Part shown: piece after piece, positions 1 to 12,110 of the stretch | Layout: each line of letters opens with the position of its first letter | How positions within the stretch are numbered: position 1 is the stretch's first letter | Virus record (IMG/VR): IMGVR_UViG_2778261454_000009 | Span: 1 to 12,110 of that record | DNA length: 12,110 nucleotides | Reading direction: 5' to 3' (one strand) | Source of the DNA: a virus | Taxonomy: Duplodnaviria > Heunggongvirae > Uroviricota > Caudoviricetes | The notes under the pieces: model-generated | The model's database searches: none | Told to the model about the DNA's origin: nothing | The model's input: only the letters and a program-made list of their open reading frames with translations | Program-made: the position numbers and the translations under genes

Positions 1-1194
1 ATGATCACCGACACAAAGCTCAGGAAGGCGCTCGGCAAGAAAAGAGATGATATCGAGATTATTTCTGATTCGCACGGGCTCAACGCCAGAATCAGCCAGG
101 CCGGAAAAATATCATTTTTCTATCGGTATCGCTGGGCCGGTAAAGCGGTAAAACTCAATGTTGGTGATTATCCTGCAATGAGTATCACCCAGGCAAGAGA
201 GCGTCGCCAACAATTCAGAAACTGGTTAACTGAGGGACTGGATCCGCGAGAGCAGGTGAAGCTGGATAAGCAGACCCGACAGGAAGCGATGTCCGTTGCC
301 GAAGCGTTCAATTACTGGATTGAAAGGCACTGTATCGCTAACGGGCTAGTTAAAGTCGATTACTATCGCCAGGTGTTTGAGAAACATATCGCCGAACCGA
401 TGAAGAATGTCAAAGTCGATAACACAGCGAAAATGCACTGGATCAACGTCTTCGATTCTATAGAAAGCAGGGTGATGGCTCATTACATGCTTTCGCTGTG
501 CAAACGGGCGTTTAGGTTCTGCGTTAACAGAAGTGTGATCGCCTCAAACCCACTCGAGGGATTACTGCCATCTGATGTCGGGCAAAAGCCTAAAAAGAGA
601 ACTCGCAGGATGGACGATGACGATCTGCGCAAAATCTATCAGTGGTTGAAAAGCCATATGTCGATAGAGTCCGTTTTCCTGGTGAAATTTATTATGCTTA
701 CCGGATGCCGTACGGCTGAGATTCGACTTAGTGAGAGATCATGGTTTCGATTGGATGATAATGAGTGGGTCGTGCCTGCGGGCAGTTATAAAACTCGGGT
801 ACATATTAGAAGGGGACTCTCAGACGCCGCCGTTAACCTGGTCAGAAATCACCTCAAGAAAATAAACACCAATCACCTGGTGACTTCACAACGTAAAATT
901 GATGGCGGGATCAAAGATTCGCCCGTTCATTCACCTGTGGCATCCAATTACGCCCGTTCTATTTGGAATGGAACAGGTATGGCAGAGTGGTCGCTTCATG
1001 ATATGAGGCGGACGATAGCCACAAATCTCTCTGAGTTAGGTTGCCCGCCGCACGTAATTGAAAAGCTGCTCGGGCATCAGATGGTGGGGGTTATGGCGCA
1101 TTACAACCTTCATGACTATATCGATGATCAGAAACACTGGCTCCGCGTTTGGCAGAGCCATCTTGAAGAGATCATCGGAGAGCCCTTCAGTTAA
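1..1194 (+). CDS. int: Tyrosine site-specific integrase with N-terminal arm-type DNA-binding domain
   Basis: 397-aa ORF from ATG at 1. N-terminal arm-binding-like motif (FFYRYRW...[13 protein letters not shown]). C-terminal catalytic boxes [14 protein letters not shown] and LGHQ...MAHYNLHDY give the R-H-R-Y signature. The window starts at the start codon, so promoter and att site are not visible and the true start could lie upstream. Confidence 0.9.
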
Positions 1195-1388
1195 TTTATC
1201 TTCTTTTTATCCTCCCACTCTTTGATTGACTCAGAGCGCCAGCGGTTAGGGTTGCCGGGCCAGTCAGGGGGTGGGAACGGGCATACGAAGCCCCGAGGCA
1301 TTGTGTCTGCACTTTGCCATGACCAAAGGGTTTTGCGTGAAATTTTGTAGCGACTGGTCAGGTCTGACGTTACCAAAATATCATCCAT
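1191..1388 (-). CDS. AlpA-family HTH protein, putative excisionase/regulator (Rac ydaQ position)
   Basis: HTH-like core [20 protein letters not shown] and C-terminal [14 protein letters not shown] resemble the phage AlpA/Xis family (from memory). The ORF track extends to 1433 but that codon is TTG with a poor RBS. The in-frame ATG at 1388 is preceded by GGAGAG at about 4 nt. Its stop overlaps the int stop tail-to-tail. Confidence 0.6.
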
Positions 1389-1429
1389 AGCTCTCTCCAG
1401 TTGCCCGTTCGGGCCATTCAAAATCTTTT

Positions 1430-1672
1430 TCAACCAACCTGCCCGGGCAGGGAGCGGAGACGGCGCATGCCGGTCATCGCTGTGGCCACGTAGCTCGCCT
1501 TTCGGTTCACCACCTCCACCCAGACTTTCACGCCTTCAACCTTCACCGTATAAGTCTCTTTCATCTTGCTTCGCCCATAGTCGCCATATGTTTGCAAGTG
1601 AGCTTCCAGCGCGATGTCGCATGCTTGGCGAGCTAAAGGTGATTGCTTACTTCCTCGATTGATCAGTCGCAT
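1430..1672 (-). CDS. Hypothetical small protein (ydaC/ralR position of Rac-like prophages)
   Basis: 80-aa ORF with ATG at 1672 preceded by AAGGAGA, lying in the leftward operon between the recT-like and xis-like genes. No recognisable motif. Confidence 0.5.
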   Translation of the reverse strand: MRLINRGSKQSPLARQACDIALEAHLQTYGDYGRSKMKETYTVKVEGVKVWVEVVNRKASYVATAMTGMRRLRSLPGQVG

Positions 1673-1710
1673 ATAATCTCCTTGAGGGAGGGTTACCCCT
1701 CCCGGTCTCG

Positions 1711-2829
1711 TCAGGCCACGTATTCCGGTTTCATATCCGCCAGGGTGATGCTGAATTGATCGTGCAGTTCATCGCCTAAGTGACGCTTTGAAGATGCAAG
1801 CATGCGCTCGGCTTCAGCGAACCGTTCGGATGCATGCGGCTCGTCGGGCTGGGGCAGGGATTTAATAGCCTCCTCAACCTTGTTGCGTGCATCCACTAGG
1901 TAATAACGCTTTACGGCTTTGTTTTTCAGCTCGGTGAATAGTGCGGATCCCAGCGTAGCTTTCGCCGTTTCAATGTCGGCACGCAGCGATTTGGCGCTAT
2001 CCACGTCCTGAGCAGATTCGATGCGTTCGCGGAAATCATCGGCAAGAGAGTCGACATTTACCGACGATTCCTGTGCGCTTTGCGTGGTTGTGACGGTGTC
2101 ACCTGAGATATCAGCCAGGCTAACGCGTTGCGGCGTTGGGTTGATCTCTTTTTCTGTGCGCTGTTCAATCTCATCAGGGGTGTACACACCAAGAACAACT
2201 GCAGGGCAATACAGGCGCGCCCAGTATTTGAGTGCCAGATAAGCGATCTGCTGTTTCGGGTTTGATACCCAAAGTGGAGAATTACGTGTGATTACGCTGG
2301 AGAGGAAAACAGGCTCTCCCCAGGTGATATCACTTTCACCGCGAATAACGGCACCTACCCGTACCGACAGTCCTTGTTCATCAGCACTTTCCCAACCGCG
2401 TACCATTTCTTTCTTGTCGTACGTCCCGCCACCTTTCGCAGGCTTTTTAACGGTTATCTCGCGGCTGCTGGCACATTTCGACCAGTCGCCCTCGTACTCA
2501 TAGTGAAAGCGGCCAACGATGGCGTTTGAGCTGGAGATCACCGCATTAACCAGTTGCGCTTCGTATCCCAGGACACCGTTAACCAGGTGCGTCTTTTGCG
2601 CCACGGCGTAAGGGTTCATACCCCACTGCATCGCCTGCATGATGATGGCCATGCAGTCTGCCGGATTGCCGCGGAGGTGCTCAGGCACCGTTACGGCTGC
2701 CTGTGCCATCAACCCGGCGACAGACTGAAGCTGGGTTAAAGCCTGCACGTTGAAAATGGCATTGCTGGCTGAGATCGTGTTTGGAGTCTGCTGTTCAGCG
2801 GTTACGATATTCGTGTTTTCCATCATCAT
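1711..2829 (-). CDS. recT: RecT/Red-beta superfamily single-strand annealing protein
   Basis: 372-aa ORF immediately downstream of recE in the same orientation (6-bp gap). Region ...DCMAIIMQAMQWGMNPYAVAQ...LGYEAQLVNAVI resembles the conserved Bet/RecT core (compare lambda Bet ALLIVANQYGLNPWTKEIYAF). AAGGGG RBS before a triple ATG. Family assigned from motif plus recE-recT synteny. Confidence 0.7.
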   Translation of the reverse strand: MMMENTNIVTAEQQTPNTISASNAIFNVQALTQLQSVAGLMAQAAVTVPEHLRGNPADCMAIIMQAMQWGMNPYAVAQKTHLVNGVLGYEAQLVNAVISSSNAIVGRFHYEYEGDWSKCASSREITVKKPAKGGGTYDKKEMVRGWESADEQGLSVRVGAVIRGESDITWGEPVFLSSVITRNSPLWVSNPKQQIAYLALKYWARLYCPAVVLGVYTPDEIEQRTEKEINPTPQRVSLADISGDTVTTTQSAQESSVNVDSLADDFRERIESAQDVDSAKSLRADIETAKATLGSALFTELKNKAVKRYYLVDARNKVEEAIKSLPQPDEPHASERFAEAERMLASSKRHLGDELHDQFSITLADMKPEYVA

Positions 2830-2834
2830 TCCCC

Positions 2835-5800
2835 TTATGCCTGAGTACGCAGCGCTTCAAGGCGGCGCAGGTCGAAGTCGTTCAGTTCGTCGGTGTAGTC
2901 AGCAGTGATTGGCGCTGGCCATTCACCTGTGTCGAATCCGGTTGCGATATTGCGCATCGCTTTGCGGTACTCGAGCATACCCAGCTCCAGTAGTTCAGCG
3001 GATGCCTCGATGATGGCGATCCAGTGGTAGTTCTCGTCTTTGTTGACGAAAATCCAGAAGAACTGGTCCAATGCTGCGGTCTCGCAATACATGGCGGCGC
3101 TCAGGTGGTAATCACGGTCGATGATTTCCCGGTGCAGTTTGGCGCGCAAACCTTCCTGTTTAATGTTCCACATGCTGATGGTTTTCAGGTCGGCACCGAT
3201 GCGAACGCCGTCCAGGTCGATCTCCAGATCAGGACGAACGCGGACTTCCAGACCGGTTTCGTCGTCAAAGCCAAAGTAGCTCACCTCAACAGCGCGGCTC
3301 GGATGCTGAAGCAGCATCCCGGCGGTTGGGTGTGCCAGTAATGCCGACTGAATAGCCAGCGCGGTGCTCAGTTGCTGACGGGTGACCAGCACTTTCCCTT
3401 GCGGATTCTCACGCCAGGCATCCAGCAGTTCGTCGGCAACGACGGCGTCCGGATTAACAGACTTCACGGTCTGGATCAGATCCGCTTTGGTACCGGACAC
3501 TTTCAGTGGTTGGGGCTTCTGCGCCTCCTGTGCAACCAAGTCAGGATTGATGATTGCCAGTTGCTCGAGTAACGCATCACGGCTACCGCTGGTTTTCACC
3601 TGTGCTGGCAGAGTGGCGTTGTATTCCTTGATGCAGGCTTTCATCGCCGCTGCGGTCTGCTTCTGGTCCGCTTCGATACGCTGATACTCTTCAGGAAGCG
3701 ACATATAGCTCTGACCAGTTTCCTCGACTGAACCACCCAGCGGCACCTGTGCTGGCAGAGTGGCGTTGTATTCTTCGAGCAAGGCTTTGATCTCATCTGC
3801 ACTCAGCAGCGCTTGCAGACCTGCGTTGTAATCATCGATAAACGCGCGGATCGTTGCCGTCGTGGTGAATGCGCCTTCCGGAATTACCGGTTCAACGCTG
3901 AATTCGGCATCCAGCAGTTCGGGCTGCAGCGCCAGCGCATGCACCAGGTTTCCCATGTCGAGCACCGGTGAGCGTTCTTTGACGATTGTCTTGGCGACGT
4001 GGCGCGCATTAAAGTACATCAGGCTAACTCGGGCATCTTTCACCTGCGTGGAGCTGATACCGTTGGCGGCGTGGTAAACCTCGTTCGGCAAACCTTCATA
4101 ACGACCTGGCTCGAAGTAAGCGGGATACACGGCTACCGGTTCGTCAGTTTGTACTTCTGGTTCGTTTTGTGCCGCAACTGGCTCAATTTGGTTTACAGAA
4201 TCGCTATTTTGGGCGACAGAATCCGCATTCTGGTTTACATCGGCTTGCTGGCTGGTATGTGACTCTTCACCAGTTTCCAGACTGCTTTCGCTTGACTGCA
4301 CTTCATCACCAGCATGTTTTTCATCACTGACAGTTTCTTCCATCTGCACATGGCTGGTGGTGTCCTCATTAACTGGTGAACGGTCATCTGTTTGTGTTTG
4401 TTGATCGCCCATCAGGCCATCAATGGAGAATACGCCGTTGCCCATGTTGGCGATTTGTGGCTGTTTAGCATCTGTTTTCTGCTCTGCAGCGACCTGCTCA
4501 TTAACCTCATTTTCCCAGCTGACGTCCGGCGCATGACCAGCATCAGCCAGCGTTTCTTCTGAGGGGTTTGAGTGGTCATTTTCGGTTAGATTGGCATTGA
4601 TATATGCCCGCAACCGCCCAGGAAAGTTAACCAATTCGGATGATGTGCCGCGGATGAGTGCAAAGATGGCTGCGCGTGAATAGTCCAGGATGCCAGCGGT
4701 TTTGCGCAGCGCCTCAGACCATTCGCTGAACGGACTTTCTTTCTTGCTGACAATCTCTTTAGCGCGACGGTAGACCCCACCAGGTATGTCGTAGATATTG
4801 AAATCCATTGGCAAGGTGGCCAGCGCAATTTCAACATCCAAAGTGTCCAGTGTGTGGACATAGTCGGTATTACGATCGGTCTTATTTCCACCGCCAGCAT
4901 TGGTTTTGACGTCAGTACGTTGAATCTGCGCAACGCGGTTACCTTTCTGCCATTCCTTGGCCAGCAGGCCACGGTCGATGTAATCAGTGTTGAACCACAC
5001 AGTCAGGAACTGGATAACTGTTGCCAGCTCCGGTTTTTTACCGTCGACAGGGAAGACTTTCTTAACAGCATTCACGACTTTATGAATATCGTGCTCAATG
5101 GCTTTTTTGAATGCTTCCACATTCTCAGCAGCCAGCAGCAGGTTCTGGATGTACGTGTCATCAGTGTCCATCTCAAGGCGGACAATCTCGTTTTTCTGCC
5201 CAGCGTCGATGTGATAGAGATATTCACCATCACCGATGAACTGAGCCAGTACGCGCTGACGGAATGGCAGGGTGGCTACGACGATCAGGTTCGGCTGATC
5301 TGGCTGCTGAGATTGTTCTTCGGGACCGACTTCATCACCAACGCTGGTGGTTTCAGTTTTGAGCAGAGGAAACTTTCCACTGCGCCAGTCTTCAACCAGT
5401 TGATTGCGATCACCTGCTTCTGCGTTCACCCAGTCAGACATGAAAGCAGCGATCACTTCAGGTTCATGCTCTTCACCCTGTTCGAAGATGTCTTTAATCG
5501 CCTGAATCATTTTCCACTCAGCATTAAGACTGAGTTCGCCAACTTCAGGAACATCATTTTTAACCTGCAGCAAGTTCTGGAGATAGGTATTGCTTTCGTC
5601 CAGTGACATTTCGCTGGCAGCCAACTGCTGCTCTTTAGTGACGTGGGTTTGGTATTTATCGTTCATCAGATGGACGGCAAAGCGGACCGCTGGAGTACGG
5701 TTTTCAACCGGGACAATTTCGGACGCAGTCGCATCTTCAACGATTACGGTCGGAGTAGGTGTGTAGGGGGCGTCAACGGAACCAGTAGACACACCAGCGG

Positions 5801-6074
5801 CTTTTGGCAGCCAGGTGCGCCCATCGTCCTGAAGCTCGTAGCGATCACACCAGGTAAAATCAACTTCACCTTCTTTCGGCAGGCCGTCGACAACTGGGAA
5901 ATCAGTGCGAATCGGTTTGGCGTAGTCCTTACCCCGACCTGTTTCGATACCTGCATCTTCCAGCGCAACATCCAGCATCAGATTGGCGCGAGCCTCGGTT
6001 TTAGCAGTGAACCAGACCACTGCATCTTGCTTTCCGGATTTCTGAGTGGCTTTAACCACATTAAAGAATTCCAT
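2835..6074 (-). CDS. recE: Exodeoxyribonuclease VIII (RecE-like), enlarged form with acidic low-complexity linker
   Basis: 1079-aa ORF. N-terminal TDFPVVDGLPKEGEVDFTWCDRYEL and central KVFPVDGK...WFNTDYIDRGLLAKEWQKGNRVAQIQRT...NAGGGNKTDR...LDYSRA blocks match my recollection of E. coli Rac RecE ([51 protein letters not shown]...NAGGGNLTDR). GAGGAT RBS before ATG at 6074. Confidence 0.85.
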   Translation of the reverse strand: MEFFNVVKATQKSGKQDAVVWFTAKTEARANLMLDVALEDAGIETGRGKDYAKPIRTDFPVVDGLPKEGEVDFTWCDRYELQDDGRTWLPKAAGVSTGSVDAPYTPTPTVIVEDATASEIVPVENRTPAVRFAVHLMNDKYQTHVTKEQQLAASEMSLDESNTYLQNLLQVKNDVPEVGELSLNAEWKMIQAIKDIFEQGEEHEPEVIAAFMSDWVNAEAGDRNQLVEDWRSGKFPLLKTETTSVGDEVGPEEQSQQPDQPNLIVVATLPFRQRVLAQFIGDGEYLYHIDAGQKNEIVRLEMDTDDTYIQNLLLAAENVEAFKKAIEHDIHKVVNAVKKVFPVDGKKPELATVIQFLTVWFNTDYIDRGLLAKEWQKGNRVAQIQRTDVKTNAGGGNKTDRNTDYVHTLDTLDVEIALATLPMDFNIYDIPGGVYRRAKEIVSKKESPFSEWSEALRKTAGILDYSRAAIFALIRGTSSELVNFPGRLRAYINANLTENDHSNPSEETLADAGHAPDVSWENEVNEQVAAEQKTDAKQPQIANMGNGVFSIDGLMGDQQTQTDDRSPVNEDTTSHVQMEETVSDEKHAGDEVQSSESSLETGEESHTSQQADVNQNADSVAQNSDSVNQIEPVAAQNEPEVQTDEPVAVYPAYFEPGRYEGLPNEVYHAANGISSTQVKDARVSLMYFNARHVAKTIVKERSPVLDMGNLVHALALQPELLDAEFSVEPVIPEGAFTTTATIRAFIDDYNAGLQALLSADEIKALLEEYNATLPAQVPLGGSVEETGQSYMSLPEEYQRIEADQKQTAAAMKACIKEYNATLPAQVKTSGSRDALLEQLAIINPDLVAQEAQKPQPLKVSGTKADLIQTVKSVNPDAVVADELLDAWRENPQGKVLVTRQQLSTALAIQSALLAHPTAGMLLQHPSRAVEVSYFGFDDETGLEVRVRPDLEIDLDGVRIGADLKTISMWNIKQEGLRAKLHREIIDRDYHLSAAMYCETAALDQFFWIFVNKDENYHWIAIIEASAELLELGMLEYRKAMRNIATGFDTGEWPAPITADYTDELNDFDLRRLEALRTQA

Positions 6075-6213
6075 GTGAGATCCTCATTTTTGGGTGTTAG
6101 AATCCCCGGACCATTGATAGCGCCCATTGGGTTAACTTTGGTTTTAATGTTGTTTCCGGTGTAACTTTGGTCGGTACCACCGGACGTAGATCCCGCCTTG
6201 CGCGGGTTTTACG

Positions 6214-6375
6214 TTAGCCTTCGTGAGCCATCTGGTCGTGCGAAGCGCAACGTTTGGAGCAATACTCTTTTTCTTTGCGCGCCAGCTGTGAGCCGTTGCG
6301 ATAGAGAAGGGTGCTCTTGATTACTTCCTCCGTTTTAACCGGCTTGCCGCAATATCCGCATTTCTTGTCTAACAT
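6214..6375 (-). CDS. Small zinc-ribbon protein (YdaE-like), 53 aa, absent from the ORF track
   Basis: Hand translation of the minus strand gives MLDKKCGYCGKPVKTEEVIKSTLLYRNGSQLARKEKEYCSKRCASHDQMAHEG, with a CxxC ... CxxxC cysteine pattern. GGAGGA lies 4 nt upstream of the ATG. It sits between the kil-position gene and recE, where Rac has ydaE. Confidence 0.6.
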   Translation of the reverse strand: MLDKKCGYCGKPVKTEEVIKSTLLYRNGSQLARKEKEYCSKRCASHDQMAHEG

Positions 6376-6386
6376 GACATCCTCCG

Positions 6387-6593
6387 CTAGTGGCTGAGTC
6401 CATGCCCCAGACCGTTCAGATAAACTTCAACCAGCAAATCCTTGGTGTAAGTCATTTCTACGCCGCGATGCAGATACAAACGTCCGCGAGCGTTAGCTGA
6501 TGCCGTCCAGGTTGAGTCTTTGTGTTTGACGAGCATCCCCGGCTGAACTGCGCCGCGGTTTACTGTCTGTGTACCGTAGTGCTGATGAACCAT
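6387..6593 (-). CDS. Small protein, first gene of the leftward early operon (KilR position by synteny)
   Basis: The ORF track's 116-aa version starts at a TTG (6737) with no usable RBS. The in-frame ATG at 6593 (MVHQHYGTQTVNRG...) is preceded by GGAGAA at about 6 nt and gives a 68-aa product. Function is inferred from position only. Confidence 0.55.
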   Translation of the reverse strand: MVHQHYGTQTVNRGAVQPGMLVKHKDSTWTASANARGRLYLHRGVEMTYTKDLLVEVYLNGLGHGLSH

Positions 6594-6845
6594 GATGTTC
6601 TCCAGTTTTTCTGAGTGAACTTCGCTGGTGGTGCCGCGGCGCTGATCTTCACGGTTGAGCGTTTTAACTCTGCAATTCACCACCGCGAAGCTCACTCTGT
6701 GCTTTGCCCTTGTCGCCAGGCTGGCGGAACGTTTCAAACCTACTGCGCGTTAATCTCACCACCTCATTCCGGTCTTCGTATGCCCCGGACGGCTACTTCG
6801 TGGGCTCCATGCCTGGGTGGTTCGTGGTGCGTCTTGGTGATTGCA

Positions 6846-7169: not shown

Positions 7170-8474
7170 TTATTGACGATTAAAGTAGTTAGAGTTTAGC
7201 TCTTTAGGGAAGTAGTGTTTACGATTTACCCAAACAAATCCATCAACTTTTGATATCACAGCGACATCAACAGGCCCACCGACAGTTTCATAATCATGTG
7301 ATACTTTTCTTTTGAATGCAGTGATGTTCACTAATGATTCGGCCATATACGCAAGATCTGCCTTCCCAAGTGATTGCAACATCGATATCATTTTATTTGT
7401 ATGGTTATTAACAATATAGCTTTCAAGTTTAGTATCGTGATCTTGTAAAAGTACGTTTTTGAGTTCCTCAATTTCACTGGAGAAGTGATTGGCTAGTACT
7501 CCATTGTTCATTGCAGGGAAAATATTGCTAGAAACATAATGATTAAGCCGATCAAAAACTTCCTCTGTAAGAGTTCTGTTAAAATTAATGATGTTAGGGT
7601 TGCACCCATCAATGAAAGTTACTACTTCATCTTCTTGAGCAAATGGTATAACAAACCCCATATTGGTTACCTCATTATGGGATTTATTATCAATATTATG
7701 GATCATCAATTTGTTTTTAAAAATGCCGTAGATATGAAGAGTGCAAATGGAAGGGTAATATTCTTCCTCTCCATAACCTGTTATAACAATCCCTGAATAT
7801 GTACGACTAGCATGGACTTTGAAAATTAAATAAGTGGAATATAATATGACTTTTTCCATAAGCTCTTGCTGTATATTTTCACAGTTATCAAGAACAATAA
7901 TTGATGAAATGTATGGCGATATTAAATCTTGTATATATGCTAAAGCATCATTAAACTCTTCTGTATCAAACCCTTCGAAAAAGAGATTATTCCTTAAGAT
8001 TCCTATCTCTAAATCAAAGGCTTGCTTAACTATGTTTTGAAAAATAACATTGTCGAGTTCAACGGCGGGGTTCATTGTTAAATAGTTTACTACATTATTA
8101 TCATTAATGTATCTCATCAAACCTTTGAGGTTATCAACAACAAGGTTTATAACGCAAGCCTCTCTCATTTCATTTGTTATAAGGTCTGAGTTACCATTGA
8201 TGAATTTTACAAAGTCATTAACATATTCTTTAATGGTAGGGAAACTAGTTTTCCCCAATTGTTTTCTATAGGATTTAATTATAAGTTCCCACGGTGCGCC
8301 ACCCAGTGTCGCATTATTATAAATCATGATCCCCACGGGATGGTGTTTAGATAGTTCGAATAGTTTTTCCGCACTATTATTTATTTTTACTAATCTATTA
8401 TGCTCTGTGGTGACTGCAGAGTCAGCAGCAAGGGCGATTCCAGTATTATTTATTACAACAATCTCAGCTGTCAT
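7170..8474 (-). CDS. HslV/20S-proteasome-beta-like N-terminal-nucleophile hydrolase homolog with a large insertion
   Basis: 434-aa product from ATG at 8474 (the track's longer form from 8573 has no RBS). The ORF is about 33% GC. N-terminus MTAEIVVINNTGIALAADSAVT...NNSAEKLFEL parallels HslV [24 protein letters not shown]...KKVRRL and 20S beta [21 protein letters not shown]...KNCSKIHFI, with Thr directly after Met, Asp at 17 and Lys near 33-36. Mid-protein IVITGYGEEEYYPSICTLHIYG and C-terminal DYETVGGPVDVAVISKVDGFVWV resemble the corresponding T1-family strands. The GSG loop is not recognisable. Comparison is from memory, not a search. Confidence 0.6.
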   Translation of the reverse strand: MTAEIVVINNTGIALAADSAVTTEHNRLVKINNSAEKLFELSKHHPVGIMIYNNATLGGAPWELIIKSYRKQLGKTSFPTIKEYVNDFVKFINGNSDLITNEMREACVINLVVDNLKGLMRYINDNNVVNYLTMNPAVELDNVIFQNIVKQAFDLEIGILRNNLFFEGFDTEEFNDALAYIQDLISPYISSIIVLDNCENIQQELMEKVILYSTYLIFKVHASRTYSGIVITGYGEEEYYPSICTLHIYGIFKNKLMIHNIDNKSHNEVTNMGFVIPFAQEDEVVTFIDGCNPNIINFNRTLTEEVFDRLNHYVSSNIFPAMNNGVLANHFSSEIEELKNVLLQDHDTKLESYIVNNHTNKMISMLQSLGKADLAYMAESLVNITAFKRKVSHDYETVGGPVDVAVISKVDGFVWVNRKHYFPKELNSNYFNRQ

Positions 8475-8502
8475 TGCAAAACATCCCGTGTAGTAGTGAT
8501 AA

Positions 8503-8531
8503 ATATTAATTAAATTGATAGTTTTTTTCAA
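8503..8531 (-). promoter_or_regulatory. Candidate sigma70 promoter for the HslV-like unit
   Basis: Minus strand reads TTGAAA (8531..8526), a 17-nt spacer, then TAATAT (8508..8503), about 30 nt upstream of the ATG at 8474. Confidence 0.45.
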
Positions 8532-8615
8532 TCTAACATAAATGGCGGAATCACCCCCCAGTAAAGACATCATTGTCTCATGGGAACTAAAAATTCAGGA
8601 CAAACCTAAAGCGAT

Positions 8616-9336: not shown

Positions 9337-9876
9337 ATGCAATCACTTACGTATCAACAGAGTAACGGGTTCATTTCAGCAGCGCTGATAAATCGCGCTC
9401 AACCAAAACCGGGCGTCAGTTGTGGTGCCCTCCGTGATGCTGTTCGCGCCTGGTCAGCAGTAGCCGGGCAGGACGTTGTAACGGCCCTGATCGTTGAAGA
9501 GTGGCACCGGATAGGTGGCGAAGGTATCGACTTTCCGGCAGATCACAGCCGTGCCCGGCAGAAGCTGTTCCGCTTCCTGGATAACCATTTCAACAGCGAA
9601 CGGTACCGCGAGAACGTCCGCCAGCTGACGCCGGCAATCCTCGCTGTCCTGCCGATTGAATACCGCAATCGTCTGCTACCAGAAGACAACGTAATGGCTC
9701 GTCTGGCAAGGCTGGAGAAGGAAACCAGCGAAGCGAAGATTGCTGTCGCAATGGATGCGCCACGTCATCAGAAGCTGAAAGAGTTGAGCGAGGGGATCGT
9801 GGAGATGTATCGCGTTGACCCTGGGTTAACCGGTCCGTTGATGGAAATGGTGCAGATTATGCTGGGGGCTATATGA
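9337..9876 (+). CDS. YdaT-like protein (cII-like regulator / putative toxin YdaT family)
   Basis: 179-aa ORF 11 nt after the Cro-like gene, with AAGGAA RBS. The motif LTPAILAVLPIEYRNRL resembles the conserved PAILAILP segment I recall from Rac YdaT. Gene order matches ydaS-ydaT. Confidence 0.6.
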   Translation: MQSLTYQQSNGFISAALINRAQPKPGVSCGALRDAVRAWSAVAGQDVVTALIVEEWHRIGGEGIDFPADHSRARQKLFRFLDNHFNSERYRENVRQLTPAILAVLPIEYRNRLLPEDNVMARLARLEKETSEAKIAVAMDAPRHQKLKELSEGIVEMYRVDPGLTGPLMEMVQIMLGAI

Positions 9877-9960
9877 CCGGTTCAAAAATGGCGAAAGCCG
9901 CGGTGCTCGAACACCAACGGCTTTCAGGTGCAAAAACAGTGCGTAATTGCGGAGAACAGT

Positions 9961-10869
9961 ATGTCAAACACCGCTGAAATAATCAATTTCCCAAATAAAA
10001 CCGAACAACCGGGAGGTCGTATGGCCGACCTGTCGAACGGGTATACCAAGGTCGCTAACGAGATCCAACAGCTTAAGCCTCGCCTGAGACTGTCAGGCCG
10101 GGAATGGCAATGTTTTGAGGCGGTGATCTGGCTTACCTACGGCTGGAACAAGAAACAGGACCGCGTGACAAATACGGTTATTGCCGAGCTTACGGGCCTG
10201 AGCGATACGCATGTATCGGACGCGCTTAAGTCTCTCGCAGAACGCAAAATCATCTTTTCACAGAAGCAGGGCATGATGAAAATCGTCGGTGTAAACACTG
10301 ACCTTTCAGCATGGATTTTAGACAAACCGGAAACGGGAAGAAAATTCCCGAAAACGGGAAAATCCTTCCCGAAATCAGGAATAACCTTCCCGAAAACGGT
10401 AGACACCCAATACAAGAACAAGAACAGTATTAAAAGATCTTCGTCCGAGAATTCTGACGAATCCTCTGACGCACGTCTGAAGAAATTTTTATCAACTCAT
10501 CCTGAAGCTGCGGTCTACACACCATCCGGTGCGAAGTGGGGCTCTGCTGAAGACCTCGAGACAGCTAAGTGGATTTCCTCCAGGGTGAAGCTGATTAACC
10601 CAACCTGCAAAGCCCCGGACATGACCTCCTGGTCTAACACTGTTCGCCTGATGCGCCAGATAGACAACCGGTCGCACCAGGACATCTGCGCGCTGTATGA
10701 CTGGGCTAGCAAACACCACTTCTGGCAGACCAACATCCTGAGTCCCGAAAGCCTGCGTAAGCAGTGGGACAAGCTGACAATGCAGCGTAACGCCGGAGGT
10801 GAGCAGCGCGCTGTCAAGCCAGATCTGGACTTCAACAACACTGACTGGGCCTATGGGGTGATCCGATGA
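9961..10869 (+). CDS. Replication initiator, lambda O-like
   Basis: Start at ATG 9961 (GGAG 6 nt upstream; the track's start at 9928 is an upstream extension). MSNTAEIINF... resembles lambda O MTNTAKILNF, and ...LTYGWNKKQDRVT... matches O ...KTYGWNKPMDRIT. Iteron repeats are embedded in the linker-coding region. The stop overlaps the next start (ATGA). Confidence 0.8.
   Translation: MSNTAEIINFPNKTEQPGGRMADLSNGYTKVANEIQQLKPRLRLSGREWQCFEAVIWLTYGWNKKQDRVTNTVIAELTGLSDTHVSDALKSLAERKIIFSQKQGMMKIVGVNTDLSAWILDKPETGRKFPKTGKSFPKSGITFPKTVDTQYKNKNSIKRSSSENSDESSDARLKKFLSTHPEAAVYTPSGAKWGSAEDLETAKWISSRVKLINPTCKAPDMTSWSNTVRLMRQIDNRSHQDICALYDWASKHHFWQTNILSPESLRKQWDKLTMQRNAGGEQRAVKPDLDFNNTDWAYGVIR
10325..10403. 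repeat. Origin iterons: four ~21-bp direct repeats, each an internal inverted repeat, inside the O-like gene
   Basis: CCGGAAACGGGAA / TTCCCGAAAACGGGAA / TTCCCGAAATCAGGAA / TTCCCGAAAACGGTAG spaced at 21-22 bp, followed by a more AT-rich stretch (10405-10450). They encode the FPKTG peptide repeats. Architecture resembles lambda ori (TCCCTCAAAACGAGGGA x4). Confidence 0.6.
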
Positions 10870-11444
10870 AATCTCTTGCAGAGCAGATGCGTAACCACGA
10901 CCGCGAGCAGATGAGCCGCATGGCCCATAACCTGCCAGAGCAGTACCAGGAGTGCGCGCCGGTCGAGCAGGTGGCGCAGGTATTCAACAAGCTGTTCAAC
11001 GAGCTGCGCGCCGCGTTCCCGGCCAGCATGGCGAACTTCCGCACCCAGGAAGACCTGAACGAATTCCGCCGTCAGTGGCTGCTGGCGTTTCAGGAGAACG
11101 GGATCCACACCATGGCTCAGGTCGATGCCGGCATGCGCATTGCCCGCCGCCAGGAGCGCCCATTCCTGCCGTCGCCGGGCCAGTTCGTCGCCTGGTGCAA
11201 GCAGAGCGGCGGCGCGCTGGGCGTCAACGTTGACCAGGTGATCGCCGAATACTGGGACTGGCGTAACCGCTCGTTCGAATTCATCTCCAGCGAGCAATTT
11301 CCATGGTCGCAGCCGGTCATGTACCACATTTGCGTAGAATTGCGCCACCGCAGCACCGAGCGCCAGTTAACGCATGGTGAACTGGCACGCGAGGCAGGCG
11401 ATCTGCTGGACATGTGGGAAAGGCGCGTCACCGAGGGTATCTGA
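10866..11444 (+). CDS. Replication protein, lambda P-like helicase loader (short form)
   Basis: MKSLAEQMRNHDREQMSRMAHNLPEQY... closely parallels lambda P MKNIAAQMVNFDREQMRRIANNMPEQY..., and ...RRQERPFLPSPGQFVAWC... is shared. At 192 aa it is about 40 aa shorter at the C-terminus than lambda P (233 aa, from memory). Confidence 0.8.
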   Translation: MKSLAEQMRNHDREQMSRMAHNLPEQYQECAPVEQVAQVFNKLFNELRAAFPASMANFRTQEDLNEFRRQWLLAFQENGIHTMAQVDAGMRIARRQERPFLPSPGQFVAWCKQSGGALGVNVDQVIAEYWDWRNRSFEFISSEQFPWSQPVMYHICVELRHRSTERQLTHGELAREAGDLLDMWERRVTEGI

Positions 11445-11476: not shown

Positions 11477-11502
11477 TTCTCCCAAACCAACCTTTTTTAT
11501 AA
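11477..11502. promoter_or_regulatory. Candidate hix/gix-like crossover site for the adjacent serine invertase
   Basis: TTCTCCCAAACC-AA-CCTTTTTTATAA has a 12-2-12 layout with an AA core and about 20/26 identity to hixL (TTCTTGAAAACCAAGGTTTTTGATAA) as I recall it. It lies 60 bp upstream of the invertase ATG. No partner site is visible in the window. Confidence 0.4.
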
Positions 11503-11561
11503 CCATCAAAAATCTGGTGATGCTTCGCCGTTTCTCCTGTTTTCATAACAGGAGAAATCCC

Positions 11562-12110
11562 ATGATTTACGGTTATGCCCGAGTATCAACAAACCACCAG
11601 GACACTGAATTGCAACTAACGGCGCTCAAGTCAGCGGGTTGTGAGAAAATTTTTGAAGAGCATGCCAGCGGGAGGAAATCGAATCGGCCGGTTCTAAAAC
11701 GGCTGATCGCCACTATGCAGCTGGGGGATGAACTGGTGGTCTGGAAGCTGGACAGGATAGGCCGCAACGTTCTGCATGCGCTGTTGATGTTCCAGCAGTT
11801 ACAGGAAAAGGGTATCAACTTCCGCAGTATTACCGATGGCGTGGATCTCAAAACAGCCAGCGGCCGCTATAACTTTCGTAACATCCTTTCCGCAACACAA
11901 TATGAATCTGATCTTAATAGCGAACGTACCTTAGCAGGGCTGGCCGTAGCCAGGGCAAAAGGGCGAGTTGGTGGTCGCAGGCCTAAGTTCACGGATGAGC
12001 AATGGCGGGAAATGGGGGAGCGGATGGCAACCGGTGAATCACGACAAAGCGTATCAAAAACGTATGGAGTAGGGCTCTCAACTCTGTATAAAAAGTTTCC
12101 AGCTAGCTGA
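11562..12110 (+). CDS. Serine DNA invertase, Hin/Gin/Pin/Cin family
   Basis: Start at ATG 11562 (GGAG 7 nt upstream; the track's start at 11454 is an upstream extension). MIYGYARVSTNHQDTELQ... has the catalytic-Ser N-terminus; LVVWKLDRIGRN and INFRSITDG match the resolvase core; the C-terminal HTH ends ...LSTLYKKFPAS (compare Hin ...LSTLYKKHPA). The window ends at its stop codon. Confidence 0.85.
   Translation: MIYGYARVSTNHQDTELQLTALKSAGCEKIFEEHASGRKSNRPVLKRLIATMQLGDELVVWKLDRIGRNVLHALLMFQQLQEKGINFRSITDGVDLKTASGRYNFRNILSATQYESDLNSERTLAGLAVARAKGRVGGRRPKFTDEQWREMGERMATGESRQSVSKTYGVGLSTLYKKFPAS

What the first reader, a model, noticed from the sequence alone, without database searches (positions are those of the whole stretch)
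10325..10403. Lambda-type origin of replication (iterons) embedded in the O-like gene
Four roughly 21-bp repeats, each containing the inverted motif TCCCG-AAAA-CGGGA, are followed by a more AT-rich stretch. This mirrors ori-lambda inside gene O. The repeats impose the peptide repeat FPKTG/FPKSG/FPKT on the protein linker, so one DNA stretch carries both a coding and a cis-acting role.
Basis: partly seen in the sequence, partly recalled or inferred. Interest (0 to 1): 0.4.

Follow-up and report, generated by a model that had tools for sequence, protein, structure and literature searches.

The report
Known phi80 replication origin in O gene
The repeats are the already described replication origin of phage phi80, a lambda-type origin lying inside the initiator gene, here carried base-for-base identical in a cut-down E. 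coli prophage, so the finding is correct but ordinary.

Summary
Four 21-bp-spaced repeats lie at 10325-10401, built on the palindrome TTCCCG-AAAA-CGGGAA. A 67% A+T stretch follows them. They sit in the linker of a 302-aa O-family initiator gene (9961-10869) and encode PETGRK/FPKTGKS/FPKSGIT/FPKT.

The interpretation also holds, and it is not new. Window 10251-10560 is 100% identical to phage phi80, and the protein is 100% identical to phi80 gp15. GenBank JX871397 annotates these four repeats as gp15 binding sites.

Comparison adds three points:
- The array is kept in relatives with about 70% identical O proteins. Iteron cores are conserved and spacers diverge. Conservation does not depend on codon position.
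- A phage with a related C-domain but an unrelated N-domain has different repeats at the same place.

One local twist: the adjacent P-type helicase-loader gene is cut at codon 192 by a deletion that, judged against intact relatives, removes about 30 kb. It loses the segment that in lambda P grips DnaB. The origin therefore probably cannot fire unaided in this 12-kb prophage remnant.

Novelty: already known. Interest: low.

The parts
9961..10869 (+). Initiator gene, 302 aa, identical to phi80 gp15 (the lambda O analogue). Its N-terminal DNA-binding domain is roughly aa 20-118. The linker at aa 122-170 holds the origin. The C-terminal domain is related to lambda O.
   Evidence: Translation. Pfam PF04492, phrog_277 and TIGR01610. 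302/302 identity to phi80 gp15.
10325..10339 (.). Iteron 1. It has a degenerate left arm: AACCGGAAACGGGAA.
   Evidence: Maps onto the phi80 'protein_bind gp15' site at JX871397 36663-36677. Motif hit with 3 mismatches.
10345..10360 (.). Iteron 2, the perfect 16-bp palindrome-type site TTCCCGAAAACGGGAA.
   Evidence: phi80 gp15 site at 36683-36698. Motif hit with 0 mismatches.
10366..10381 (.). Iteron 3, TTCCCGAAATCAGGAA.
   Evidence: phi80 gp15 site at 36704-36719. Motif hit with 2 mismatches.
10387..10401 (.). Iteron 4, TTCCCGAAAACGGTA.
   Evidence: phi80 gp15 site at 36725-36739. Motif hit with 1 mismatch.
10402..10440 (.). A+T-rich stretch (67% A+T). It is the inferred unwinding region, equivalent to the 38-bp A+T-rich part of ori-lambda.
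   Evidence: Composition. Third codon positions are almost invariant among 61 distinct O genes. The lambda ori description comes from PMC3349717.
10432..10470 (.). Right-arm box AAAAGATCTTCGTCCGAGAATTCTGACGAATCCTCTGAC, shared almost unchanged with lambda. It contains the imperfect inverted repeat GAGAATTC (10447-10454) / GAATCCTC (10459-10466).
   Evidence: Alignment with lambda ori. Sliding DNA identity to lambda O peaks at 85% over 10429-10467, against 53% for the whole gene.
10476..10500 (.). Second short A+T-rich stretch (76% A+T). Whether it belongs to the origin is uncertain.
   Evidence: Composition only.
10866..11444 (+). Truncated P-type helicase-loader gene. It encodes 192 aa, against 229 aa for phi80 gp14. 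It lacks the equivalent of lambda P domain IV, the C-terminal lasso.
   Evidence: PF06992 at 6e-48 and phrog_109. Alignment with gp14 and lambda P. The domain IV role in gripping DnaB is from PMC12661323.
11436..11439 (.). Deletion junction with 4-bp GGTA microhomology. It joins P codon 191 to the region upstream of the tail-fibre DNA invertase.
   Evidence: Parental sequences on both sides compared. BLAST break points.

Best explanation
This is ori-phi80, the lambda-type replication origin of phage phi80. It is embedded in the linker-coding part of the initiator gene (gene 15, the O analogue).

Shown:
- The sequence is identical to phi80.
- There are four iterons at 21-bp spacing, which is two helical turns.
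- Each iteron is an inverted repeat, TTCCCG-AAAA-CGGGAA.
- An A+T-rich stretch follows, and then a box shared with lambda.
- The constraint acts on the DNA itself rather than on the protein.

Inferred by analogy with lambda:
1. Dimers of gp15 bind the four iterons through the N-terminal domain and bend the DNA into an O-some. A-tracts recur about every 10 bp across the array, which would favour bending.
2. This destabilises the adjacent A+T-rich stretch.
3. The gp15 C-terminal domain recruits the gp14(P)-DnaB complex.
4. Host chaperones release DnaB, and bidirectional replication starts.

The same bases also encode the flexible linker. The iteron periodicity of 21 bp equals 7 codons, which stamps the peptide repeat FPK(T/S)G onto it.

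In this window the module sits in a 12-kb prophage remnant at the phi80 attachment site. Its P gene has lost the C-terminal DnaB-binding lasso. I therefore infer that the origin is intact in cis but cannot fire without a loader supplied in trans, for example by a superinfecting phi80, HK225 or mEp237-type phage.
For: - Identity: window 10251-10560 is 100% identical to phi80 JX871397. The protein is 302/302 identical to gp15. The phi80 record annotates four gp15 binding sites that coincide with the repeats. The same DNA is in phages mEp237 and HK225 at 99.6-99.9% and in 132 of 5426 complete E. coli genomes.
- Anatomy: period-21 array. The motif cluster is far above chance. The A+T-rich region and the lambda-conserved right arm are present. 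This matches the published description of ori-lambda as four 18-bp iterons plus a 38-bp A+T-rich stretch inside O (PMC3349717).
- DNA-level selection: across 61 distinct O genes, the iteron codons 122-147 show identities of 0.92, 0.94 and 0.93 at codon positions 1, 2 and 3, with amino-acid identity 0.87. The N-domain shows 0.98, 0.99 and 0.86, with amino-acid identity 0.97. Between the phi80-type and PHB10-type arrays, iteron cores differ at 6 of 61 positions and spacers at 8 of 15 (Fisher p = 6e-4).
- Specificity pairing: phages with the same N-domain keep the same iterons (PHB10 and Meifeng). Klebsiella phage ST16-OXA48phi5.2 has a related C-domain but an unrelated N-domain, and carries different repeats (CCGCACATGAAG) at the same place.
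- Truncated loader: P' ends at residue 191 plus one foreign codon. Lambda P domain IV (residues 193-233) is the C-terminal lasso that binds the DnaB DH-LH elements and is probably the first part to bind (PMC12661323).
Against: - No binding or replication experiment can be run here. The functional assignment rests on identity to phi80, on a GenBank annotation and on analogy with lambda.
- I could not read the primary papers. These are Grosschedl & Hobom 1979 Nature 277:621, Moore et al. 1979, Ogawa et al. 1988 and Rotman et al. 2012. Only their citations were seen.
- Three of the four iterons depart from the palindrome.
- The claim that P' is non-functional is inferred from lambda P structures. 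It has not been tested for gp14.
Confidence: 0.93

Rival explanations
1. The repeats are only a peptide repeat or slippage product in a disordered protein linker, with no cis-acting role on the DNA.
For: The region does encode a heptad-like peptide repeat in an interdomain linker. Amino-acid identity there is lower than in the flanking N-domain.
Against: - A peptide repeat gives no reason for each unit to be a DNA inverted repeat.
- Third codon positions are as conserved as first and second positions in this stretch (0.93 against 0.82 gene-wide), while the protein is less conserved.
- Cores are conserved and spacers diverge.
- The sites are annotated as gp15 binding sites in phi80.
- The copy number is fixed at four in all but one of the 80 related loci kept by the search.
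Confidence: 0.02
2. In this particular remnant the array no longer serves replication. Instead it is retained as a decoy: intact O plus iterons, with or without the lasso-less P', titrate or poison the replication proteins of incoming phi80-type phages. This would be a form of replicative exclusion.
For: - O and ori are fully intact, while a deletion that by comparison with intact relatives spans about 30 kb removed the late genes and the end of P.
- Plasmids carrying oop plus the lambda iterons inhibit phages that use the lambda replication module (PMC3349717).
- The remnant is recorded for two samples.
Against: - The junction occurs in 0 of 5426 complete E. coli genomes and in none of the three contig collections. 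That suggests a recent accidental deletion rather than a selected state.
- The perfect identity of ori and O to phi80 is equally explained by recency.
- There is no PADLOC hit for P'.
- In the lambda work, iterons alone were not sufficient without oop transcription.
Confidence: 0.05
3. The palindromes act as RNA or DNA hairpins, for example a minus-strand intrinsic terminator at iteron 2, rather than as protein-binding sites.
For: The terminator scan lists a minus-strand stem-loop, TTCCCGTTTTCGGGAA followed by TTTTCTTCCC, at 10360-10345.
Against: - The scan found 3 terminator-like sites in the region against 1.5 expected by chance.
- The stem has only 6 pairs.
- No promoter-like site was found downstream of the array, so nothing seen here would send minus-strand transcripts through it.
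- A hairpin role does not explain four phased copies or the pairing with the N-domain type.
- Rfam finds nothing in the window.
Confidence: 0.01

Closest known systems
ori of bacteriophage phi80 (within gene 15; GenBank JX871397 and X13065)
   Same: It is identical in sequence over 10251-10560. The initiator protein is identical. The four annotated gp15 binding sites are the same, and so is the gene order cII - 15(O) - 14(P).
   Different: Only the context differs. The immunity region and the left arm are mEp237-like rather than phi80. Gene 14 is truncated by a deletion that fuses it to the tail-fibre invertase region.
ori-lambda (lambda 39034-39160, inside gene O)
   Same: - Both have four inverted-repeat iterons in the O linker, then an A+T-rich stretch, then a nearly identical right-arm box.
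- Both have the pattern TCCC...AAAA...GGGA in each iteron.
- In both, a P-type loader gene follows.
   Different: - The iteron sequence and geometry differ. Lambda has TCCCTC-AAAAC-GAGGGA, with the CCC and GGG blocks 12 bp apart. Here the site is TCCCG-AAAA-CGGGA, with the blocks 9 bp apart.
- The spacing here is a regular 21 bp, against 20, 24 and 23 bp in lambda.
- The O proteins are 41% identical overall. The shared DNA outside the right arm is about 50% identical.
Origins of Stx phages (933W, P27) with six iterons
   Same: They have the same lambda-type layout, and O binding has been studied by EMSA (PMC7466680).
   Different: Those origins carry lambda-like iterons in six copies. This one has four copies of the phi80-type iteron.

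Membership tests
Lambda-type (O/P) origin embedded in the initiator gene | The origin lies inside an O-family initiator gene, between the N-terminal DNA-binding domain and the C-terminal domain. | tested here: met
   PF04492 and TIGR01610 cover aa 20-118. The iterons occupy codons 122-147. The C-terminal part matches O-like PHROGs.
Lambda-type (O/P) origin embedded in the initiator gene | There is an array of about four direct repeats, each with internal inverted-repeat symmetry. | tested here: met
   Period-21 array with 3.5-4 copies. The palindromic motif is clustered four times, and 0 of 200 shuffles reach the observed count.
Lambda-type (O/P) origin embedded in the initiator gene | An A+T-rich stretch lies directly to the right of the iterons. 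| tested here: met
   A+T is 67% at 10402-10440, against 49% for the gene.
Lambda-type (O/P) origin embedded in the initiator gene | The right-arm box is conserved among lambdoid origins. | tested here: met
   Identity to lambda is 85% over 10429-10467, the maximum along the gene, against 53% overall.
Lambda-type (O/P) origin embedded in the initiator gene | The iteron type is paired with the type of the initiator N-domain. | tested here: met
   The same N-domain goes with the same iterons in PHB10, Meifeng and the IMG/VR loci. A different N-domain goes with different repeats in the Klebsiella phage and in lambda.
Lambda-type (O/P) origin embedded in the initiator gene | A complete P-type helicase loader is encoded next to O. 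| tested here: not met
   The gene is present (PF06992, 6e-48) but truncated to 192 aa. It lacks the equivalent of lambda P domain IV. This bears on whether the module is autonomous here. It does not bear on the identity of the cis element.
Lambda-type (O/P) origin embedded in the initiator gene | The initiator binds the iterons, and the region supports O/P-dependent replication. | not testable with these tools
   Only indirect evidence is available: the GenBank annotation of gp15 binding sites on the identical phi80 sequence. The primary literature is cited but could not be read.
ori-phi80 specifically | Sequence identity with the phi80 origin and with gp15. | tested here: met
   100% DNA identity over 310 nt. 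302/302 protein identity.

The most novel reading that the evidence does not exclude
The 12-kb remnant keeps a perfect O gene and origin together with a loader that has lost its DnaB-gripping tail. It may have been co-opted as a replication-level exclusion device. Resident gp15, the iterons and P' would then sequester or poison the replication proteins of incoming phi80-type phages.
Probability: 0.05. Interest if true: 0.35.

Novelty: already known. Interest (0 to 1): 0.08.

Why it matters
It matters little as a discovery. The phi80 origin was sequenced and compared with lambda's in the late 1970s, and it is annotated in GenBank. The value of this check has three parts. It shows that a tool-less reader recognised a genuine dual-use stretch, coding and cis-acting, from sequence alone. 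It documents with current data that the constraint there acts on the DNA and that the iteron type travels with the initiator's N-domain. And it flags that in this genome the origin sits in a deletion remnant whose helicase loader is crippled, which is relevant to anyone predicting whether this prophage can replicate or be induced.

Tried and rejected
- Rfam scan of the whole window: no family at gathering score. No known structured RNA explains the palindromes.
- Terminator and promoter scan of 9800-10900: iteron 2 scores as a weak minus-strand terminator, but the number of such sites is near chance. Rejected.
- Literature: I tried to read Rotman et al. 2012 by DOI and by PMC id. It is not held. 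Two further full-text searches found no open paper that describes ori-phi80 directly. One paper reading failed on a term that was too short.
- Exact searches for the P'-invertase junction in genome contigs, viral contigs and metagenome contigs gave no hits. No complete E. coli genome spans the junction. The source was eventually found by exact protein look-up.
- PDB sequence search with O gave only a marginal hit to a winged-helix regulator (E = 0.009). No solved structure of an O protein was found.
- PADLOC scan of P' and two neighbouring ORFs gave nothing.
- My first script failed because the locus files were not yet present. It was repeated.

Full report
**1. What is in the sequence**

Window 10325-10401 holds four head-to-tail units spaced 21 bp apart. 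Tandem Repeats Finder reports period 21, 3.5 copies, 78% matches and no indels at 10327-10399. The repeat finder gives three in-register copies at spacing 21 and 21.

Each unit is built on the inverted repeat TTCCCG-AAAA-CGGGAA. The motif TCCCGAAAACGGGA hits at 10325, 10346, 10367 and 10388 with 3, 0, 2 and 1 mismatches. The whole 12-kb window is expected to give 0.92 hits, and none of 200 shuffles reached the observed total of 5. Only the second unit is a perfect palindrome.

Read directly from the sequence, runs of A start at 10331, 10341, 10351, 10359, 10372, about 10381 and 10393. That is about every 10 bp, in phase with the DNA helix.

To the right comes a stretch of 67% A+T (10402-10440). 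A G+C-normal box follows, then a second short A+T-rich stretch (76% A+T, 10476-10500). The gene as a whole is 49% A+T.

The repeats lie in frame inside the ORF 9961-10869. There they read ...DKPETGRK FPKTGKS FPKSGIT FPKTVDT....

**2. What the surrounding genes are**

The ORF is an O-family replication initiator:
- Pfam PF04492 matches residues 20-118 at 6e-25.
- NCBIfam TIGR01610 'phage replication protein O, N-terminal domain' matches at 1.8e-40.
- phrog_277 'replication initiation O-like' matches at 3e-122 over the full length.

The next ORF (10866-11444) is a lambda-P-type helicase loader (PF06992, 6e-48). Upstream lie a cII-like (YdaT family) gene, a cro-like gene and a divergent repressor gene. 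This is the standard lambdoid early-right operon.

**3. Identity**

The 1-kb stretch 9900-10900 is 99.9% identical to phage mEp237 and 99.6-99.8% identical to phages phi80 and HK225. It occurs in 132 of 5426 complete E. coli genomes. Over 10251-10560 the window is 100% identical to phi80 JX871397. The encoded protein is 302/302 identical to phi80 gp15.

The phi80 record annotates gene 15 as 'similar to lambda O' and gene 14 as 'similar to lambda P'. It carries four 'protein_bind: gp15' features. With the offset taken (window = locus + 7451), these features fall at 10325-10339, 10345-10360, 10366-10381 and 10387-10401.

The comparative papers on lambdoid origins are Grosschedl & Hobom 1979, Nature 277:621, and Moore et al. 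1979. I saw them only as citations. From my own knowledge they include the phi80 origin, but I could not read them here. The feature is thus already known and already annotated.

**4. Comparison with lambda**

The lambda record annotates four iterons at 39034-39118 inside O. PMC3349717 describes ori-lambda as four 18-bp iterons joined to a 38-bp A+T-rich stretch, bases 39034-39160.

Aligned with lambda, the window has the same layout but a different iteron. Lambda has TCCCTC-AAAAC-GAGGGA, with the CCC and GGG blocks 12 bp apart. The window has TCCCG-AAAA-CGGGA, with those blocks 9 bp apart. This fits the different N-domains; the proteins are 41% identical overall.

The stretch most like lambda is not the iterons. 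It is the box right of the A+T-rich region, AAAAGATCTTCGTCCGAGAATTCTGACGAATCCTCTGAC (10432-10470). Sliding identity there is 85% over 10429-10467, against 53% for the whole gene.

**5. Is the constraint on the DNA or on the protein?**

I collected 80 related loci from IMG/VR plus phages PHB10 and Meifeng. After removing duplicates there were 61 distinct O genes, which I aligned by codon.

| Region | Pos 1 | Pos 2 | Pos 3 | Amino-acid identity |
|---|---|---|---|---|
| N-domain (codons 1-118) | 0.98 | 0.99 | 0.86 | 0.97 |
| Iteron codons (122-147) | 0.92 | 0.94 | 0.93 | 0.87 |
| Whole gene | 0.90 | 0.94 | 0.82 | 0.88 |

The N-domain shows the ordinary pattern of a protein under selection. In the iteron codons the three positions are equally conserved while the protein is less conserved. 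This points to selection on the DNA itself. Third positions stay almost invariant through about 10465.

Between the phi80-type array and the PHB10-type array (O about 70% identical), the iteron cores differ at 6 of 61 positions and the spacers at 8 of 15 (Fisher p = 6e-4).

All of the 80 kept loci have four iterons except L063. That locus has two, through an in-frame 42-bp loss between iterons 2 and 4.

Klebsiella phage ST16-OXA48phi5.2 has a C-domain about 80% identical in DNA but an unrelated N-domain. At the same place it carries a different repeat, CCGCACATGAAG.

So the iteron type travels with the N-domain, as expected for initiator-origin specificity.

**6. Mechanism**

Shown here:
- Identity to ori-phi80.
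- The anatomy of the origin.
- DNA-level constraint.
- Pairing of iteron type with N-domain type.

Inferred from the established lambda pathway (my own knowledge, partly restated in PMC3349717 and PMC12661323):
1. gp15 dimers bind the four iterons and bend the DNA.
2. The adjacent A+T-rich stretch opens.
3. The gp15 C-domain brings in gp14-DnaB.
4. Chaperones free DnaB and replication starts.

The 21-bp period equals seven codons. This is why the origin imprints FPK(T/S)G on the linker.

**7. The local twist**

The window is identical to NCBI assembly GCA_002518125.1, contig NODD01000008.1. There it is followed by a YCII-family gene and, further on, tryptophan-biosynthesis genes. In strain UPEC85 the same invertase is followed by yciI and tonB. 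In strain ECCWS199 the integrase end of the intact relative lies next to kch. This is the phi80 attachment site between kch and yciI, as noted in the mEp237 record.

Homology to gene 14 stops at 11439, and homology to the tail-fibre/invertase region starts at 11436. The two parental sequences share GGTA at the join. Intact relatives such as mEp237 and the prophage of strain ECCWS199 have roughly 30 kb of nin, Q, lysis, head and tail genes between these points.

The resulting P' has 191 native residues plus one foreign codon, against 229 in gp14. The missing part corresponds to lambda P domain IV (193-233). That is the C-terminal lasso, which binds the DnaB DH-LH elements and is probably the first part to engage the helicase (PMC12661323).

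I infer that the origin is intact in cis but not autonomous here. The junction is absent from 5426 complete E. coli genomes and from three contig collections. This suggests a recent, rare deletion.

**8. Rivals**

- A pure peptide repeat is contradicted by the palindromic DNA, by the codon-position result and by the core/spacer contrast.
- A hairpin or terminator role rests on one weak scan hit at chance frequency, with no Rfam support.
- A decoy or exclusion role for the remnant is not excluded but has no positive evidence. There is no PADLOC hit and the junction is very rare.

**9. Verdict**

The feature is the already known and annotated origin of phage phi80. Interest is low.

Noticed in passing
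window 10866-11444 and 11436-11439; L090 (GCA_002518125.1 NODD01000008.1): The P-type loader gene is cut at codon 192 by a deletion with GGTA microhomology. The deletion fuses it to the region upstream of the tail-fibre DNA invertase. In intact relatives about 30 kb of late genes lie between these points. What remains is a 12-kb remnant running from int to the invertase at the kch/yciI attachment site. The junction is absent from 5426 complete E. coli genomes and from three contig collections.
   Followed up: yes
window 11478-11503: TTCTCCCAAACCAACCTTTTTTATAA lies upstream of the invertase gene (11562-12110). From memory it looks like a hix/gix/cix-type crossover site of Din-family invertases. 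It lies about 40 bp right of the deletion junction, so the deletion did not occur at this site.
   Followed up: no
window 7170-8573 (- strand): A 467-aa ORF lies just downstream of the repressor gene, on the same strand. It has no Pfam, NCBIfam or PADLOC match and hits only phrog_5990 (unknown function, 1e-177). mEp237 has three small ORFs at this position instead. It sits beside the repressor gene. From my own knowledge lambdoid phages often carry exclusion genes there.
   Followed up: partly
window about 9903-9950 (- strand): A hairpin, GAAAGCCG...CGGCTTTC followed on the minus strand by a T-run, lies between cII and O. This is the position of the phi80 M3 RNA, the lambda oop homologue annotated in JX871397. 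Rfam gave no hit.
   Followed up: partly
L063 (IMGVR_UViG_3300048929_000128), O gene: A natural variant has only two iterons. It arose by an in-frame 42-bp loss between iterons 2 and 4. From memory this resembles the classical lambda ori-minus 'r' deletions. Whether that phage still replicates is unknown.
   Followed up: no
L006 1061-1172 (Klebsiella phage ST16-OXA48phi5.2): This O gene has a phi80-like C-domain but an unrelated N-domain. In its linker it carries a different, 12-bp-period repeat (CCGCACATGAAG). This is presumably its own iteron set.
   Followed up: partly
window 1-6840 vs mEp237 and ECCWS199 prophage: The left arm (int, a DUF4060 gene, recT, a 1079-aa recE, ydaE, kil) is only 91-95% identical to mEp237 and to the ECCWS199 prophage, and has internal gaps. 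The O-P segment is 99.8-100% identical. This shows mosaic ancestry, with the replication module shared almost unchanged.
   Followed up: partly
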